Below the pieces are notes generated by a model. It was not told the DNA's origin and ran no database searches. It saw only the letters and a program-made list of their open reading frames with translations. The position numbers were made by a program, and so were the translations under genes. From a virus, in IMG/VR virus record IMGVR_UViG_3300018080_000099, positions 64,001-128,000 of that record: a DNA stretch of 64,000 bases; one strand, 5' to 3'. Positions 54,009 through 62,629 of the stretch are shown here, piece after piece. Positions within the stretch are counted from its first letter, which is position 1. Each line of letters begins with the position of its first letter.

Positions 54009-54084
54009 TGGTGGGCCCGGAGAGGCTCGAACTCTCGACTCCCTGATTAAAGGTCAGGTACTCTGCCAACTGAGTTACGGACCC
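54009..54084 (-). tRNA. tRNA-Lys(UUU) variant with C33 (loop CCUUUAA)
   Basis: anticodon arm CCTGA CCTTTAA TCAGG; T-arm GAGAG TTCGAGC CTCTC; canonical Lys(UUU) copy at 55535. Confidence 0.6.
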
Positions 54085-54085
54085 A

Positions 54086-54171
54086 TGGTGCCGGTGGGGA
54101 GATTCGAACTCCCAATCCCTGAGGGCCAATGTTTCTAAGACACTGATGTATGCCAATTCCAACACACCGGC
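54086..54171 (-). tRNA. tRNA-Leu(UAG), type II, CCA encoded
   Basis: anticodon arm AGTGT CTTAGAA ACATT; A73; Leu-like D-arm. Confidence 0.7.
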
Positions 54172-54313
54172 AAAACTTACCACGGAGTGCCCCATACTCG
54201 CTTTTTCTTCTTGTCGATTTCTGTGCGACAGTTAGGACACCTTCTTACGAATTTTCTTACTTCTTTCCCACACTTCGGGCATTTTTTTACGAACTTTCTC
54301 ATACTTATATTTA

Positions 54314-54403
54314 TGGCGGAGCATACGGGACTCGAACCCGTACTCTGCGGTATACGTCTCTGCCTTGACAGGGCAGCGTGTTAGCCAGTTACACCAATGC
54401 TCC
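54314..54403 (-). tRNA. tRNA-Asp(GUC) with an 18-nt extra variable arm; G73
   Basis: acceptor GGAGCAT / ATGCTCC (Asp-like GGAGC), anticodon arm CTGCC CTGTCAA GGCAG; variable arm AGACGTATACCGCAGAGT. Confidence 0.55.
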
Positions 54404-54459
54404 GAAAAGCAACTCAGGATGCGTTTCTTTTTATTCCTCTGCCTCACCAGTTGGGCTAT

Positions 54460-54497
54460 CCCCCGATAAGGTCGGGGGAGTGGGATTCGAACCCACA
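54460..54497 (-). other. composite element: TAAGG-loop hairpin abutting an orphan T-arm-like hairpin
   Basis: CCCCCGA TAAGG TCGGGGG then AG then TGGG ATTCGAA CCCA; no tRNA body could be folded. Confidence 0.45.
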
Positions 54498-54514
54498 TAC
54501 ACAAGGTTCCCTTT

Positions 54515-54763
54515 TTAAGAAGTTTGTGTTTGCTGAATACATCCTTCTGTTGCTTCTTTATCCATTTCCTCTTTGTACTTTCTGATGTAACGCATCAATG
54601 TGATTGCCTTATACTCAGCCATAAATGTTGCGTTACCGACTTCTTTCTTGTCACTGATTGGGACTGGAAACATAAAGCCTCCGTCAGTTTTATACCACAA
54701 CTCACCGTCCCTGTAATATTCAAATCGAGCCATTTGGCCTTTTACTAAATCTTTGATGTTCAT
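54515..54763 (-). CDS. hypothetical protein
   Basis: 82-aa ORF. Confidence 0.4.
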   Translation of the reverse strand: MNIKDLVKGQMARFEYYRDGELWYKTDGGFMFPVPISDKKEVGNATFMAEYKAITLMRYIRKYKEEMDKEATEGCIQQTQTS

Positions 54764-55020
54764 AGAACCCTCACATTGTCATCAATGTAGTGAATTTCGG
54801 TCCACGAAAATAACCTCATAACGTGTGACATTGAAGGTTGGTTAATGTTCTTGTGCGTCAAAACAGTTTCATCGTCAAGGACAATTTTGTTTTGAAGGAA
54901 AAAACATGCTTGAACTTTCTTAACCTTCATCCCTGCATATCCATAGTTGATTGTTTTCCCTTCGGCTCTCTTTTCAGCGATTTTCTTACAAACATAGTTC
55001 CATTGGGCTTTTGTTATCAT
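54760..55020 (-). CDS. hypothetical protein
   Basis: 86-aa ORF; ATGA overlap with the downstream gene. Confidence 0.4.
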   Translation of the reverse strand: MITKAQWNYVCKKIAEKRAEGKTINYGYAGMKVKKVQACFFLQNKIVLDDETVLTHKNINQPSMSHVMRLFSWTEIHYIDDNVRVL

Positions 55021-55066
55021 TATACTTCCTTCTCACGGATTTGTCCGTGATGTCTGTCACAAAAGT

Positions 55067-55145
55067 TGGCGGAAACGACGGGATTCGAACCCGCGACCTT
55101 CGGATTGACAGTCCGACGTCCTTGACCTGACTAGACCACGCTTCC
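55067..55145 (-). tRNA. tRNA-Asp(GUC), canonical, CCA encoded
   Basis: anticodon arm TCGGA CTGTCAA TCCGA; T-arm GCGGG TTCGAAT CCCGT; G73. Confidence 0.75.
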
Positions 55146-55152
55146 GTTTATT

Positions 55153-55229
55153 TGGCACCCCCAGAAGGACTCGAACCTTCAGTCTCTTGATTCGTAATCA
55201 AGTATGTTGTCCAGTTACACTATGGAGGT
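55153..55229 (-). tRNA. tRNA-Arg(ACG), CCA encoded
   Basis: anticodon arm CTTGA TTACGAA TCAAG; T-arm GAAGG TTCGAGT CCTTC. Confidence 0.75.
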
Positions 55230-55238
55230 ATTGAATTC

Positions 55239-55315
55239 TGGTACCCTCGGTAGGATTTGAACCCACGACTTCCGCGTTCGAAGCGCGGCACTCTGTTCCG
55301 CTGAGTTACGAGGGC
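55239..55315 (-). tRNA. tRNA-Arg(UCG), CCA encoded
   Basis: anticodon arm CCGCG CTTCGAA CGCGG; T-arm GTGGG TTCAAAT CCTAC. Confidence 0.7.
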
Positions 55316-55374
55316 ATAATGTAAAATATATTTTACAAAAAGGTTAGTTATTGTCAAATATATTTTACGTTATT

Positions 55375-55448
55375 TAGCCGCACTGGGAGTCGAACCCAGT
55401 TTTTCTCTGTTTGTAGGACAGACAAGAATCCCGACTCTTACTACGGCT
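55375..55448 (-). tRNA. tRNA-Val(UAC)-like variant with C33 (loop CCUACAA), no CCA
   Basis: anticodon arm TCTGT CCTACAA ACAGA; T-arm CTGGG TTCGACT CCCAG; canonical Val(UAC) copy at 50845. Confidence 0.5.
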
Positions 55449-60899: not shown

Positions 60900-60975
60900 T
60901 GGTGGAGATAAAGAGAGTCGAACTCTAATCACTCTGGTTGCAAGCCAAAGTAGCACTCACGGCGCGTCTATCCCC
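60900..60975 (-). tRNA. tRNA-Ala(UGC), G3-U70 present, CCA encoded
   Basis: acceptor GGGGATA / TATCTCC with a G3-T70 wobble; anticodon loop CTTGCAA; A73. Confidence 0.65.
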
Positions 60976-61536
60976 GAAATATTTATTTACTTCTTTTTCA
61001 ATTAAATGCTTAAAATTACTGTGCATATATTGGTGGTGTGTTGGACACATTGGTATTAAGTTTTCAGGTGAATTATTTTTGTGATTTCCATCATAATGAT
61101 GAACTGAAACTATTTTATCCTCACCACAAATTATACATTCTTTTTTATGAAACTTAAAACAAATTGTTCTATATTTGGATAATCCATATTTTTCAGCTTT
61201 CTTTTTACCACCAATAGAACAAGCGCATTTTCTCGAACAAAAATATTTTTCTTTTTTAGGAAACTGATTTCTTCTTTCAGTAACTAAAAATGGTTTTTTA
61301 CAAACTTCACAAATAACTCCAAAATCTTTAAGCTCTCCAAACTTAATATTTAATATTTTTTGTTGAGCTTTTTGTAAACTTTTAGTTTGATTTCTTTTTG
61401 GATTTTTATTACACCATCTTGTATGATTAGCTTTTTCACTAGTTGTTTTGAAATCAAATTCATTTTTACAATACTTACAGCTCCACATAAATCCTCCTTT
61501 AAGAGTATTTATATGTGGAGAGGTTAAAAATTGCAA
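60925..61536 (-). CDS. HNH endonuclease with multiple CxxC fingers (AT-rich)
   Basis: VHHYDGNHKNNSPENLIPMCPTHHQYMH; the 3' end of the ORF call overlaps tRNA-Ala. Confidence 0.55.
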   Translation of the reverse strand: MQFLTSPHINTLKGGFMWSCKYCKNEFDFKTTSEKANHTRWCNKNPKRNQTKSLQKAQQKILNIKFGELKDFGVICEVCKKPFLVTERRNQFPKKEKYFCSRKCACSIGGKKKAEKYGLSKYRTICFKFHKKECIICGEDKIVSVHHYDGNHKNNSPENLIPMCPTHHQYMHSNFKHLIEKEVNKYFGDRRAVSATLACNQSD

Positions 61537-61567
61537 GAAAATACAATTTTATTTCTTTCCAAAGTAG

Positions 61568-61641
61568 TGGAGCTGGTCGGACTCGAACCGACAAACTTCT
61601 TCCGTGCAAGGGAAGCGCTCTCCCAATTGAACTACAGCCCC
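61568..61641 (-). tRNA. tRNA-Ala(UGC), second copy, G3-U70 present
   Basis: acceptor GGGGCTG / CAGCTCC; anticodon arm CTTCC CTTGCAC GGAAG. Confidence 0.75.
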
Positions 61642-61647
61642 AAAAAA

Positions 61648-61725
61648 TGGTCGGTGTGGAGGGATTCGAACCCCCGACAACATGGACCCAAACCATGCAC
61701 TCTGGCCAGACTGAGCTACACACCG
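61648..61725 (-). tRNA. tRNA-Pro(UGG), canonical, CCA encoded
   Basis: C1-G72, A73; anticodon arm CATGG TTTGGGT CCATG. Confidence 0.8.
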
Positions 61726-61726
61726 A

Positions 61727-61800
61727 TGGTACTGCGTAGGGGAATTGAACCCCTGTATCCTGATAGAAAGTCAGGTGAACTACCACTATTCTAACGCAGC
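61727..61800 (-). tRNA. tRNA-Glu(UUC), copy 2
   Basis: body nearly identical to the 53872 copy; acceptor differs (GCTGCGT). Confidence 0.7.
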
Positions 61801-62151
61801 ATTTATATTTATTAAACCACTATGAATTTCCCCATGACAGTTGCGACAAACAACAACACACTTATCAATTTCTTTAAGCAGTTTGTCCCAATTACATCTA
61901 TTCACTAATCGACTTACTTCAAAATCCTTATCATTTTTGTTGAGGTGATGAAAGTCTAATGACTGAGTACATTTATTATACCCACATACAACACAACCTT
62001 TTTCAACCTTTTTATTTTCAACAAAATTAGAAACAGACTTTTTATATTGTTTGCTTTTTGTTAGGTATCTGTCCTTATTATCCTGATAATGCTTCTTAAC
62101 ATTTTTGCGATTACATTCACGACAATAATACTGATAATCTTTTCCTTTCAC
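61786..62151 (-). CDS. HNH endonuclease
   Basis: LDFHHLNKNDKDFEVSRLVNRCNW...CVVVCRNCHGEIH. Confidence 0.55.
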   Translation of the reverse strand: MKGKDYQYYCRECNRKNVKKHYQDNKDRYLTKSKQYKKSVSNFVENKKVEKGCVVCGYNKCTQSLDFHHLNKNDKDFEVSRLVNRCNWDKLLKEIDKCVVVCRNCHGEIHSGLININAALE

Positions 62152-62272
62152 CAGTATAGCTTAGTTGGCTGGTTGACATACATTGTCATTTCAAGCAAGG
62201 TAACTAGGATACGCGCCTAGATGGGTTGCGCCCCACCGCATTTTTGCTGTCTTTAGGACAATGATTAAAATT

Positions 62273-62348
62273 TGGTACTCCCACGGGGAATCGAACCCCG
62301 GTCTGAAGGCTGAGAACCTACTATCCTAGTCCACTAGACGATGGGAGC
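62273..62348 (-). tRNA. tRNA-Glu(CUC), CCA encoded
   Basis: anticodon loop TTCTCAG; T-arm CGGGG TTCGATT CCCCG. Confidence 0.65.
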
Positions 62349-62349
62349 A

Positions 62350-62435
62350 TGGTACAGCGGGTGAGATTTGAACTCACGTTGGCTTTACGCCCCTGCTTAT
62401 CAGACAGGTCTCTGTTACCATTCGAGTACCGCTGT
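62350..62435 (-). tRNA. tRNA-Ile(GAU) with a 14-nt extra variable arm (GGCGTAAAGCCAAC)
   Basis: acceptor ACAGCGG / CCGCTGT, A73, CCA; anticodon arm CCTGT CTGATAA GCAGG; T-arm GTGAG TTCAAAT CTCAC. Confidence 0.55.
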
Positions 62436-62448
62436 ATATTTAGACAAC

Positions 62449-62538
62449 TCAGGATGGAATATTTGTGTGGATTTGAACCACATAAATTGCTTAAAAGGCA
62501 ATTATTTTCCGTTAGGGTTTGCTGGACCCATCCTTCTG
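62449..62538. ncRNA. structured RNA element, family copy 3 (AGGATGG ... GTTTGCTGGAC CCATCCTTCTG), with a compensatory base-pair change
   Basis: terminal helix AGGATGG / CCATCCT (A-T replaced by G-C relative to copies 1 and 2); internal hairpin TGTGTGG ATTTGAA CCACATA. Confidence 0.5.
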
Positions 62539-62550
62539 TTGTTATTATCA

Positions 62551-62629
62551 TGGTCAGGAGGGTGGGATTCGAACCCACGTGAACTCGGCTCCAGACCGAG
62601 TGACTCAAGCCAGACTAGCCTACCCCCTG
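62551..62629 (-). tRNA. tRNA-Pro(UGG)-like variant with C33 and an extended D-loop
   Basis: C1-G72, A73, CCA; anticodon arm CTCGG TCTGGAG CCGAG. Confidence 0.5.

What the first reader, a model, noticed from the sequence alone, without database searches (positions are those of the whole stretch)
54009..62629. Canonical and divergent copy pairs of the same isoacceptor, including C33 anticodon-loop variants
Several anticodons are present twice.
Pairs where one copy carries C33 instead of U33:
- Lys(UUU): canonical copy at 55535, C33 variant at 54009.
- Val(UAC): canonical copy at 50845, C33 variant at 55375.
- Pro(UGG): canonical copy at 61648, C33 variant at 62551 (which also has an extended D-loop).
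Pairs where one copy carries a long extra variable arm:
- Asp(GUC): 55067 versus 54314.
- Ile(GAU): 50687 versus 62350.
Plain duplicates with no structural variant:
- Glu(UUC): 53872 and 61727.
- Ala(UGC): 60900 and 61568.
Anticodon-loop alterations are a documented route by which phage tRNAs escape host anticodon nucleases, so the paired layout suggests nuclease-resistant back-up copies.
Basis: partly seen in the sequence, partly recalled or inferred. Interest (0 to 1): 0.7.

Follow-up and report, generated by a model that had tools for sequence, protein, structure and literature searches.

The report
Phage tRNA copies with C33
A 264-kb phage carries about 50 tRNA genes, and second copies of tRNA-Lys and tRNA-Pro replace the near-universal U before the anticodon with C; this change recurs in about 3% of phage tRNAs, and its proposed role in escaping host tRNA-cutting enzymes is plausible but untested.

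Summary
The window holds a minus-strand array of at least 46 tRNA genes (47.4-63.9 kb) from a 264-kb phage.

- **C33 copies.** Only Lys(UUU) 54009 and Pro(UGG) 62551 lack U33. Both have C33, clean cloverleaves, an encoded CCA and Rfam scores above threshold (62.7 and 42.3 bits). Each has a canonical partner only 64-73% identical.
- **Weak copies.** The Val(UAC) C33 copy and the second Ala(UGC) copy are sub-threshold and look like relics.
- **Long variable arms.** Confirmed for the Asp and Ile copies and six more tRNAs.
- **The "plain" Glu pair.** It is not plain: both copies carry a rare U37.

C33 is not peculiar to this phage.

- It occurs in about 3.5% of 1,651 viral tRNAs sampled, and in 19% of tRNA-Val.
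- It clusters in some arrays.
- It is found in Aeromonas phage 44RR2.8t and in a prophage tRNA-Lys present in 15% of complete E. coli genomes.
- It is essentially absent from ordinary cellular tRNAs.

Other "invariant" tRNA positions deviate at similar rates in phages (1-3.4%). Two characterised anticodon nucleases tolerate C33.

Nuclease or modification escape therefore remains a reasonable but unproven reading. Its main rival is tolerated drift in a redundant array rich in HNH endonuclease genes.

The parts
47442..63912 (-). tRNA gene array: 46 ARAGORN tRNAs covering all 20 amino acids, plus about 6 weak tRNA-like relics. It is interspersed with small ORFs and five HNH genes and continues past the window end.
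   Evidence: L003 (same phage, 99.99% identical) has one more tRNA-Met beyond position 64000.
54009..54084 (-). tRNA-Lys(UUU), C33 variant. Loop C32 C33 UUU A37 A38; 39-41 = UCA; encoded CCA.
   Evidence: Rfam 62.7 bits; loop parse; cloverleaf; MFE cloverleaf.
55535..55612 (-). tRNA-Lys(UUU), canonical U33 copy. 39-41 = UGU; 64% identical to the C33 copy.
   Evidence: Rfam 70 bits.
62551..62629 (-). tRNA-Pro(UGG), C33 variant. Loop U32 C33 UGG A37 G38; C1:G72, A73, CCA.
   Evidence: Rfam 42.3 bits.
61648..61725 (-). tRNA-Pro(UGG), canonical copy. Loop UU UGG GU; 73% identical to the C33 copy.
   Evidence: Rfam 61.2 bits.
55375..55448 (-). Val(UAC)-like tRNA with C32 C33. Weak D arm, no CCA; probable relic or atypical tRNA.
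   Evidence: Found only at ARAGORN -ps85. No Rfam tRNA hit. Its anticodon arm TCTGT-CCTACAA-ACAGA nearly matches a C33 Val(UAC) in an unrelated viral contig, L263.
50845..50921 (-). tRNA-Val(UAC), canonical copy.
   Evidence: Rfam 74.5 bits, the best in the window.
54314..54403 (-). tRNA-Asp(GUC) with an 18-nt variable region.
   Evidence: Rfam 60.9 bits.
55067..55145 (-). tRNA-Asp(GUC), standard 5-nt variable loop.
   Evidence: Rfam 68.2 bits.
62350..62435 (-). tRNA-Ile(GAU) with a 14-nt variable arm (GGC-GUAAA-GCC hairpin).
   Evidence: Rfam 53.5 bits.
50687..50764 (-). tRNA-Ile(GAU), short variable loop.
   Evidence: Rfam 41.2 bits.
53872..53945 (-). tRNA-Glu(UUC) copy 1, with U37 (loop CUUUCUA).
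61727..61800 (-). tRNA-Glu(UUC) copy 2. 95% identical to copy 1, also U37; compensatory G5:C68 to C5:G68 change.
61567..61641 (-). tRNA-Ala(UGC), strong copy, no encoded CCA.
   Evidence: Rfam 60.8 bits.
60901..60977 (-). Ala(UGC)-like second copy. G3:U70 and CCA present, but weak D arm and short T stem; overlapped by the HNH ORF end.
   Evidence: 26.4 bits, below the gathering score of 29.
60925..61536 (-). HNH endonuclease ORF lying between the two Ala(UGC) copies.
   Evidence: Pfam HNH_2/HNH_3 matches, E about 5e-4, below Pfam's curated cut-offs; sequence read.
57227..57810 (-). Two Lys(CUU) genes (57736-57810 and 57227-57300, 54% identical) flanking HNH ORF 57302-57679.
30860..32209 (+). 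RtcB RNA ligase. It repairs 2',3'-cyclic-phosphate/5'-OH breaks such as those left by anticodon nucleases.
   Evidence: Pfam RtcB E=7e-65; phrog_1075 E=1.4e-122.
52500..53297 (-). Metallo-beta-lactamase protein of the RNase Z/BN / Apyc1 type, inside the array.
   Evidence: Pfam Apyc1 E=9e-31. JGI names homologues 'ribonuclease BN (tRNA processing enzyme)'.
56533..57039 (-). Peptidyl-tRNA hydrolase PTH2, inside the array.
   Evidence: Pfam PTH2 E=5e-32.

Best explanation
The Lys(UUU) and Pro(UGG) C33 genes are functional elongator tRNAs. They are old, divergent paralogues of the canonical copies within a near-complete, mosaic phage tRNA set. They decode the same codons as their partners but present a different anticodon stem-loop to host enzymes that bind that loop.

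How the copies differ:
- **Lys pair.** The copies differ at position 33, next to the PrrC/RloC cut site. They also differ at 39-41, the AriB recognition and cut site. The C33 copy reads UAAUCA, like the sensitive E. coli tRNA, and the U33 copy reads UAAUGU.
- **Pro pair.** The variant differs at 33, 37 (G to A) and 38.

Proposed working: during infection the host tRNA, or one phage copy, is cut or mis-modified by a loop-directed enzyme. The other copy is a poor substrate and keeps translation going. RtcB reseals what is cut.

C33 probably also blocks host t6A37 formation on the Lys copy. A37 precludes m1G37 on the Pro copy.

Shown: the genes, their structure, their divergence, and the recurrence of C33 in phages. 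Inferred: expression, aminoacylation, resistance to any nuclease, and modification status.
For: Structure and integrity:
- Rfam 62.7 and 42.3 bits, perfect stems, CCA, Pro identity elements C1:G72/A73.
- The pairs are 64-73% identical yet both members fold. This is long-term maintenance, not fresh duplication and decay.

Recurrence of C33:
- 45 distinct C33 tRNA-Lys(UUU) and 49 distinct C33 tRNA-Thr(UGU) sequences were found among the first 120 pattern matches in viral contigs.
- At least 17 of 23 C33 tRNAs checked score above 50 bits.
- A compensatory T-stem change within one C33 Lys family (L154 versus L179).
- The substitution is almost always C (22 C versus 3 G).
- tRNA-Val is enriched, 10/52, p=5.6e-6.
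- C33 clusters in some arrays: 6/19, 7/21 and 4/9.
- A prophage tRNA-Lys with C33 is in 798 of 5,426 complete E. coli genomes, and no exact U33 version was found.
- Genome scan: only 6 of 120 matches were tRNAs, five of them in loci with 4-24 tRNAs.

Phage context: RtcB, PTH2 and an RNase BN-like enzyme.

Literature:
- PrrC cuts 3' of U33 (PMC2610378).
- CdiA-CT(EC536) cuts between 32 and 33 (PMC11724271).
- E. coli TsaBCDE fails on a U33C tRNA (PMC8887486).
- The AriB site is U36AAUC|A41 (PMC12409363).
- Phage tRNAs escape nucleases through loop changes (PMC10264068).
- tRNA-Lys(UUU) is the top target of several defence nucleases (PMC13056530).
Against: - No nuclease is known to be blocked by C33. 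Gamma-toxin is unaffected by U33C (PMC2275089), and colicin E5 accepts any pyrimidine at that position (PMC1635277).
- In 797 viral tRNAs the deviation at position 33 (3.1%) matches that at G53, T54, T55, C56, A58 and C61 (1.0-3.4%). C33 may therefore be part of a general looseness of phage tRNAs.
- 2 of 47 in this window is simply the viral background rate.
- The host and its defence genes are unknown.
- No orthologues of these two genes were found. The nearest INPHARED tRNAs (81% identity or less) have U33. The closest relative fragments carry different tRNAs at the corresponding place.
- Only 10 unique canonical Lys(UUU) sequences accompany the 45 unique C33 ones in the same loci, so pairing is not a rule.
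- Decaying copies (Val C33, Ala #2 and other relics) show that the array also accumulates junk.
Confidence: 0.42

Rival explanations
1. Tolerated drift in a redundant, fast-turning-over array. Recombination and HNH homing endonucleases repeatedly import and duplicate tRNA genes. With the host and a second phage copy supplying the same anticodon, selection is relaxed. A mild change such as U33 to C33, which keeps a pyrimidine and a workable turn, persists without any benefit, and some copies go on to decay.
For: - Other invariant positions deviate at the same 1-3.4% in viral tRNAs.
- The window's 2/47 equals the background rate.
- Relics are present: Val C33 with no Rfam hit, Ala #2 at 26.4 bits, and tRNA-like pieces at 55452-55530, 59859-59945 and 63198-63283.
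- There are five HNH ORFs in the array. The Ala(UGC) and Lys(CUU) pairs each flank one.
- U to C is a transition.
Against: - The Lys and Pro C33 genes are otherwise intact after about 30% divergence from their partners.
- Non-U33 is nearly always C (22:3).
- C33 is non-randomly distributed: Val 19%, and arrays with 30-45% C33.
- Most loci with a C33 Lys(UUU) show no canonical Lys(UUU) in the stretch fetched.
- No exact U33 version of the E. coli prophage tRNA was found in about 800 genomes.
Confidence: 0.35
2. Decoding or modification tuning rather than defence. C33, together with A37 in the Pro copy and U37 in both Glu copies, makes tRNAs that work without, or avoid, host anticodon-loop modifications (t6A37, m1G37). 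Alternatively it alters wobble or frame maintenance to suit phage codon usage or programmed frameshifting.
For: - U33C abolishes t6A formation by E. coli TsaBCDE (PMC8887486).
- The Pro variant has A37, so it cannot receive m1G37 (TrmD's requirement for G37 is established knowledge).
- Both Glu(UUC) copies have U37, against 1.1% pyrimidine-37 in viral tRNAs.
- C33 is natural in initiator tRNAs of multicellular eukaryotes (PMC8887486).
- A tRNA-like gene with an 8-nt anticodon loop sits in the same array.
Against: - C33 occurs in many isoacceptors that are not t6A or m1G37 substrates, such as Val, Ala and Gly.
- No codon-usage or frameshift signal was examined that requires it.
- Canonical copies of Lys and Pro are kept alongside.
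Confidence: 0.15
3. Artefact: assembly or sequencing error, or a mis-assigned anticodon loop.
For: None beyond the rarity of C33 in cells.
Against: - An ENA contig is 99.99% identical across the region and two further contigs (one Logan, one ENA) are 100% identical over the parts they cover, although these may derive from the same or related samples.
- Stems of 5/5 pairs fix the 7-nt loops.
- ARAGORN, Rfam and unconstrained folding agree.
- The same loop recurs in hundreds of independent records.
Confidence: 0.02

Closest known systems
Phage T5 tRNA-Lys(UUU), resistant to the PARIS nuclease AriB (PMC11464382, PMC12409363)
   Same: A phage-encoded second source of tRNA-Lys(UUU) whose anticodon stem-loop differs from the sensitive cellular tRNA. 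It is part of a large tRNA region interspersed with HNH endonuclease genes.
   Different: T5's resistance maps to positions 39 and 41 and is shown experimentally. Here the notable change is at position 33 and nothing has been tested. The C33 copy in this window actually carries the E. coli-type AriB site UAAUCA, and the U33 copy carries UAAUGU.
Cluster C1 mycobacteriophage tRNAs with anticodon-loop changes at VapC sites (van den Berg et al. 2023, PMC10264068)
   Same: The same idea applied to a large phage tRNA set (33 tRNAs on average): loop substitutions at or near nuclease cut sites.
   Different: That study compared phage tRNAs with known host tRNAs and known cut sites, and it does not single out position 33. 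For PrrC/RloC and tRNA-Lys it reports 'no mutation' in coliphages (supplementary file 1c). Here the host is unknown.
C33 tRNA-Lys(UUU) of E. coli lambdoid prophages (PPompW and Stx2a phage records) and of Aeromonas phage 44RR2.8t
   Same: The identical loop, CCUUUAA, in an otherwise normal phage tRNA-Lys. These genes are annotated simply as tRNA-Lys. Phage 44RR2.8t also has a C33 tRNA-Ile(GAU).
   Different: The sequences are unrelated outside the loop. In those phages the C33 gene is the only Lys(UUU) seen in the stretch examined, with no canonical partner there.
Initiator tRNA-Met of multicellular eukaryotes (natural C33)
   Same: It shows that a C33 tRNA can function on the ribosome, and that C33 is read as an anti-determinant by bacterial and yeast t6A enzymes (PMC8887486).
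   Different: It is an initiator, not an elongator, and comes from a different domain of life with a co-evolved modification machinery.
Phage T4 tRNA repair by Pnkp and Rnl1 against PrrC
   Same: A phage answer to cleavage of tRNA-Lys next to U33. This phage carries an RNA ligase suited to the same kind of break.
   Different: The ligase here is RtcB, which seals directly, rather than the Pnkp/Rnl1 pair. Repair and a possible resistant copy would coexist.

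Membership tests
Canonical tRNA (Rfam RF00005) | Covariance-model score at or above the gathering score of 29 bits | tested here: met
   Lys-C33 scores 62.7 bits and Pro-C33 42.3 bits. Not met for Val-C33 (no hit) or Ala #2 (26.4 bits).
Canonical tRNA (Rfam RF00005) | U at position 33 (U-turn nucleotide) | tested here: not met
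   C33 in Lys 54009, Pro 62551 and the Val-like 55375. The other 45 tRNAs have U33.
Canonical tRNA (Rfam RF00005) | Seven-nucleotide anticodon loop closed by a 5-bp stem, with conserved T-loop and D-loop GG | tested here: met
Nuclease-resistant phage tRNA (T5 tRNA-Lys / mycobacteriophage C1 type) | Encoded by a phage and shares its anticodon with a cellular tRNA | tested here: met
   264-kb phage contig; anticodons UUU and UGG.
Nuclease-resistant phage tRNA (T5 tRNA-Lys / mycobacteriophage C1 type) | Substitution at the recognition or cut site of a nuclease present in the host | tested here: inconclusive
   Position 33 borders the PrrC/RloC and CdiA-CT(EC536) cut sites (PMC2610378, PMC11724271). 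However, the host and its nucleases are unknown, and gamma-toxin and colicin E5 tolerate C33 (PMC2275089, PMC1635277).
Nuclease-resistant phage tRNA (T5 tRNA-Lys / mycobacteriophage C1 type) | Demonstrated resistance to cleavage and rescue of infection | not testable with these tools
   Needs biochemistry or genetics.
tRNA pseudogene / relic | Sub-threshold model score, broken arms, no conservation | tested here: not met
   Not met for Lys-C33 and Pro-C33. Largely met for Val-C33 and Ala #2.
Homing-endonuclease-rich phage tRNA region (T5 / T4 SegB type) | Free-standing endonuclease genes interspersed among tRNA genes | tested here: met
   HNH-like ORFs at 51833-52246 and 55616-56209 reach Pfam's HNH cut-off. 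Those at 57302-57679, 60010-60456 and 60925-61536 match HNH families below it.
Homing-endonuclease-rich phage tRNA region (T5 / T4 SegB type) | The endonuclease cuts tRNA-region DNA of related phages and drives gene conversion | not testable with these tools

The most novel reading that the evidence does not exclude
C33 marks a widespread and so far undescribed class of phage and tRNA-array tRNAs. They would be selected because U33 is read by host anticodon-loop enzymes: tRNases cutting at 32|33 or 33|34, and the bacterial t6A machinery. Arrays in which 30-45% of tRNAs carry C33 would then point to hosts armed with a broad-specificity, U33-dependent tRNase. In this window, the Lys(UUU) pair would be a two-way hedge: one copy altered at the PrrC-type site, the other at the AriB-type site.
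Probability: 0.3. Interest if true: 0.75.

Novelty: new variant of a known kind. Interest (0 to 1): 0.5.

Why it matters
U33 is one of the most conserved nucleotides in biology, and textbooks treat it as invariant in elongator tRNAs.

This work shows three things:
- Intact phage tRNAs routinely replace U33 with C, in about 3.5% of those sampled, 19% of tRNA-Val and up to 45% within single arrays.
- A C33 tRNA-Lys sits in prophages of about 15% of complete E. coli genomes.
- Such tRNAs are almost absent from ordinary cellular tRNA genes.

The idea that phage tRNAs escape tRNA-targeting immunity therefore becomes directly testable in a tractable host. The tests are to swap C33 and U33 in the E. 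coli prophage tRNA-Lys, challenge with PrrC, RloC, PARIS, Schlafen or Cas13, and measure t6A.

If C33 blocks a nuclease or a modification enzyme, it would explain part of why phages carry tRNAs. It would also offer a design rule for nuclease-proof tRNAs.

If it does not, it shows how much deviation from 'invariant' positions translation tolerates. For annotation, it warns that C33 should not by itself flag a phage tRNA as a pseudogene.

Tried and rejected
**Searches for relatives**
- Close relatives in INPHARED using the whole array: only 70-90-nt tRNA-sized matches.
- Relatives through the array-embedded radical-SAM protein:
  - single-protein scan of viral contigs: nothing;
  - profile scan: three distant loci;
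  - metagenome scan: 80 loci, almost all distant cellular radical-SAM genes, with only the already-known 202-kb contig being close.
- The 202-kb relative (48% protein identity) has 12 tRNAs in the 21 kb fetched, all with U33. None is orthologous to the variant copies.
- BLAST of the two C33 tRNAs against 50,697 phage records: the best hit was 81% identical, and the six tRNAs recovered from the four hit regions inspected all had U33. No orthologue was found, so conservation of these particular genes could not be tested.

**Share of viral Lys(UUU) that carries C33**
- Normalising true tRNA hits to non-tRNA pattern matches gave 19-28%.
- I rejected this as too high. Cross-sample counts give 1/11 for Lys(UUU) and 0/55 for Thr(UGU).

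**Specificity of C33**
- Lys-specific enrichment of C33 is rejected: Thr(UGU) C33 is about as frequent in the same kind of scan.
- C33 as a uniquely variable position is rejected by the control on other invariant positions.

**Other checks**
- Stop-codon recoding linked to the tRNA(CUA): no signal in this window.
- A structured RNA in the 296-nt gap 60605-60900: z-score 0.8, so none.
- Homologues of the mini RNase P RNA in all fetched loci: none.
- Literature searches for C33 in phage tRNAs or tRNA arrays found no paper describing it.

Full report
**What is there.**

The window carries a very large tRNA gene array.
- ARAGORN tRNAs. Forty-six lie on the minus strand between 47442 and 63912, and one tRNA(CUA) lies on the plus strand at 34202.
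- Rfam's tRNA model scores 42 of them at or above its gathering threshold.

The window belongs to a 264-kb phage contig.
- Proteins of the array occur on contigs of 264,037 and 263,805 bp.
- An ENA contig is 99.99% identical over the shared 11.6 kb. A Logan contig and a second, short ENA contig are 100% identical over the parts they cover.
- No cultured phage in INPHARED resembles the region beyond single tRNA-sized matches.

Non-tRNA genes inside or near the array:
- five HNH endonuclease ORFs;
- a PTH2 peptidyl-tRNA hydrolase;
- a metallo-beta-lactamase of the RNase Z/BN/Apyc1 type;
- a B12-binding radical-SAM enzyme, Cpn10 and a macro-domain protein;
- about 20 kb away, an RtcB RNA ligase.

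**Checking the observation.**

I parsed positions 27-43 of all 47 tRNAs.
- Exactly two lack U33: Lys(UUU) 54009-54084 (loop C-C-UUU-A-A) and Pro(UGG) 62551-62629 (loop U-C-UGG-A-G).
- Both loops are closed by 5 of 5 Watson-Crick or GU pairs.
- Both genes have complete cloverleaves and an encoded CCA, with Rfam scores of 62.7 and 42.3 bits.
- Unconstrained folding of Lys-C33 returns a textbook cloverleaf. In Pro-C33, U32 and G38 can additionally pair.
- The C33 calls are therefore not folding artefacts.
- Their canonical partners (55535, 61648) are only 64% and 73% identical to them.

Two other claimed copies are weak.
- **Val(UAC) C33, 55375-55448.** It appears only when ARAGORN's threshold is lowered. 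It gets no Rfam tRNA hit even at E<=10 in a 191-nt search and has no CCA.
- **Second Ala(UGC), 60901-60977.** It scores 26.4 bits, under the threshold of 29. It keeps G3:U70 and CCA, but the last codons of an HNH ORF overlap it.

Other points:
- The long variable arms of Asp 54314 (18 nt) and Ile 62350 (14 nt) are real.
- Six more tRNAs of normally short-armed types also have them: Trp, Asn, Pro CGG, Met 53326, Gln UUG and Cys.
- The two Glu(UUC) genes are 95% identical with one compensatory acceptor-pair change. Both have U at position 37, where tRNAs carry a purine. Pyrimidine-37 is seen in only 1.1% of viral tRNAs and 1 of 72 viral Glu(UUC).

**Is C33 conserved in relatives?**

Orthologues could not be found.
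- The nearest tRNAs to Lys-C33 in 50,697 phage records are at most 81% identical. The six tRNAs recovered from the four hit regions inspected all have U33.
- Relatives found through the radical-SAM gene are distant.

Relatives found through the well-conserved RNase BN-like protein were more informative.
- The closest fragments (80% protein identity) carry a different set of tRNAs at the corresponding place. These include an Arg(ACG) with C32-C33 that scores 44.3 bits.
- A 427-kb phage carries a Lys(UUU) with the same CCUUUAA loop.

**How common is C33 elsewhere?**

*Pattern scans.* Each scan stops at 120 matches.

| Collection | Pattern | True tRNAs | Non-tRNA matches |
|---|---|---|---|
| Viral contigs | CCTTTAA-N13-14-GTTCGANNC (Lys C33) | 73 tRNA-Lys(UUU) with C32-C33, 45 distinct | 42 |
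| Viral contigs | U33 control (Lys) | 100 | 22 |
| 185,579 bacterial and archaeal genomes | Lys C33 pattern | 6 | 107 |
| Viral contigs | Thr(UGU) C33 pattern | 56, 49 distinct | 57 |

- Five of the six true genomic hits sit in loci with 4 to 24 tRNAs, where 9 of 55 other tRNAs also have C33.
- In genome loci without such arrays, 26 tRNAs all have U33.
- The Thr(UGU) result shows that C33 is not specific to Lys.

*Pooled viral sample.*
- I pooled tRNAs not selected for their own position 33. Of 1,651 unique viral tRNAs, 57 (3.5%) have C33.
- tRNA-Val stands out at 10 of 52, p=5.6e-6.
- At least 17 of 23 such C33 tRNAs score above 50 bits in Rfam.
- C33 clusters in certain arrays: 6 of 19, 7 of 21 and 4 of 9.

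*Cultured and annotated examples.*
- Aeromonas phage 44RR2.8t has a C33 tRNA-Lys(UUU) and a C33 tRNA-Ile(GAU).
- A lambdoid-prophage tRNA-Lys occurs in 798 of 5,426 complete E. coli genomes. It sits in a four-tRNA cluster after the Q antiterminator gene. Querying its U33 version returns no exact match.

**A control that tempers this.**

In 797 viral tRNAs I measured how often each supposedly invariant position deviates from the consensus.

| Position | Deviation |
|---|---|
| U33 | 3.1% |
| G53 | 1.8% |
| T54 | 3.4% |
| T55 | 2.3% |
| C56 | 1.8% |
| A58 | 3.3% |
| C61 | 1.0% |

- Phage tRNAs are therefore generally looser than cellular ones, and position 33 is not exceptional in rate.
- What is non-random is the near-exclusive choice of C (22 C, 3 G), the enrichment in Val and the clustering by array.
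- An estimate that 19-28% of viral Lys(UUU) carry C33, from normalising to chance matches, is probably too high. Cross-sample counts give 1 of 11 for Lys(UUU) and 0 of 55 for Thr(UGU).
- The window's 2 of 47 is simply the viral background.

**What the literature allows.**

In favour of a link between position 33 and host enzymes:
- Phage tRNAs with loop changes that defeat tRNases are documented (PMC10264068; T5 tRNA-Lys against AriB, PMC12409363).
- tRNA-Lys(UUU) is the prime target of PrrC, RloC, AriB and a bacterial Schlafen (PMC2610378, PMC13056530).
- PrrC cuts immediately 3' of U33 (PMC2610378).
- CdiA-CT(EC536) cuts between 32 and 33 (PMC11724271).
- E. coli TsaBCDE does not put t6A on a U33C tRNA (PMC8887486). 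A C33 tRNA-Lys is therefore likely hypomodified in a bacterium with a similar enzyme.

Against such a link:
- K. lactis gamma-toxin cleaves a U33C substrate normally (PMC2275089).
- Colicin E5 needs only a pyrimidine at that position (PMC1635277).
- The eLife study lists tRNA-Lys of coliphages as unmutated at the PrrC site.
- I found no paper that describes C33 in phage tRNAs.

**Most likely working.**

The two strong C33 genes are functional tRNAs kept alongside canonical copies.
- **Lys pair.** The copies differ at both known nuclease contact regions. The C33 copy has U36AAUCA41, the AriB-sensitive E. coli sequence. The U33 copy has UAAUGU (PMC12409363). This is what a two-way hedge would look like.
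- **Pro pair.** The variant also swaps G37 for A37, which rules out m1G37.
- **Repair.** RtcB in the same genome fits a phage that expects its tRNA pool to be cut.

I put this reading at about 0.42. It rests on anatomy, recurrence and context, not on any test of resistance.

**Main rival (about 0.35): tolerated drift in a redundant array shaped by recombination and HNH endonucleases.**
- Decaying copies support it: Val C33, Ala #2 and tRNA-like pieces at 55452-55530, 59859-59945 and 63198-63283.
- Two pairs that each flank an HNH gene support it.
- The equal deviation rate at other invariant positions supports it.

A decoding or modification-tuning role (about 0.15) is a third option. An artefact is excluded for practical purposes.

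**Verdict.**

This window is an ordinary example of a trait that is itself interesting: intact C33 tRNAs are a recurrent and apparently undescribed feature of phages and tRNA arrays, and the trait can be tested directly in E. coli.

Noticed in passing
window 52247-52501 (-): A 255-nt match to bacterial RNase P RNA class A (75.6 bits, below the gathering score of 100; E=1e-21). It spans the whole model and keeps P1-P4, the AGGAAAGUC and ACAGAAUCC core motifs, but lacks about 110 nt of the specificity domain. This looks like a phage-encoded minimal RNase P RNA, placed directly after the RNase BN-like gene inside the tRNA array. No homologue was found in the fetched relatives, and no paper on phage RNase P RNA was found.
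   Followed up: partly
window 34202-34278 (+): A tRNA with a CUA anticodon (amber suppressor type; ARAGORN labels it 'Pyl'), 54.5 bits, on the opposite strand from the array. ORF statistics give no sign of TAG recoding in this window. TAG ends 6 of 39 long ORFs.
   Followed up: partly
window 63648, 63290, 62631, 62350, 54314, 53326, 50348, 50015 (-): Eight tRNAs of normally short-armed types (Trp, Asn, Pro CGG, Ile GAU, Asp, Met, Gln UUG, Cys) have 13-20-nt variable regions. Several form small hairpins, some capped by G/CUAA(A)-type loops. Relatives show the same trait: Lys(UUU) of 90 nt in L095 and Gln(UUG) of 86 nt in L098. Aeromonas phage 44RR2.8t has tRNA-Phe annotated at 84 nt and tRNA-Asn at 86 nt.
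   Followed up: partly
window 53872-53945 and 61727-61800 (-): Both Glu(UUC) genes have U at position 37 (loop CUUUCUA), and no A37 copy is present. Pyrimidine-37 occurs in 1.1% of pooled viral tRNAs and 1 of 72 viral Glu(UUC). Viral Asp(GUC) shows pyrimidine-37 (U or C) in 10 of 59. Any change at position 37 abolishes gamma-toxin cleavage of the tRNA-Glu stem-loop (PMC2275089).
   Followed up: partly
window 59235-59317 (-): A tRNA-like gene (Rfam 36.8 bits) with an 8-nt anticodon loop (ARAGORN anticodon 'cagt'), a long variable arm and a CCA end. It resembles a quadruplet or frameshift-suppressor-type tRNA.
   Followed up: no
window 55452-55530, 59859-59945, 63198-63283 (-): Further weak tRNA-like pieces. 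One has an intact acceptor, T arm and CCA but a scrambled middle. The others score 28.9 and 24.8 bits. They appear to be relics of array turnover.
   Followed up: no
window 57227-57810 and 60901-61641 (-): Two HNH endonuclease genes are each flanked by two divergent (54-55% identical) copies of one isoacceptor, Lys(CUU) and Ala(UGC). In each pair one copy lacks an encoded CCA. The HNH ORF at 60925-61536 ends inside the downstream Ala-like gene.
   Followed up: partly
window 57812-59131 (-): A B12-binding radical-SAM enzyme embedded in the tRNA array. Homologues of 47-60% identity occur next to tRNAs in other phage contigs (L002, L005). It may be a tRNA-modifying enzyme.
   Followed up: no
L231, L490, L409, L488 (whole loci): tRNA arrays in which 30-50% of tRNAs have C33: 6 of 19 in a viral contig, and 7 of 21, 4 of 9 and 3 of 6 in contigs from bacterial genome assemblies. 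C33 is strongly clustered by element.
   Followed up: partly
L501 5924-6233 (E. coli strain 4/4 prophage): A four-tRNA cluster (CAU-anticodon tRNA, Lys(UUU) with C33, Thr(UGU), Gly(UCC)) lies between the Q antiterminator and the lysis genes. The Lys gene is in 798 of 5,426 complete E. coli genomes. Lys(UUU) and Thr(UGU) are the two prime AriB (PARIS) targets.
   Followed up: partly
L284 9376-9703; L280 8927-9361; L100 11544-11918: Other viral contigs fetched in passing carry a full-length RNase P RNA (263.7 bits) inside a tRNA array, a GOLLD RNA (196 bits) and a tmRNA (137.5 bits).
   Followed up: no
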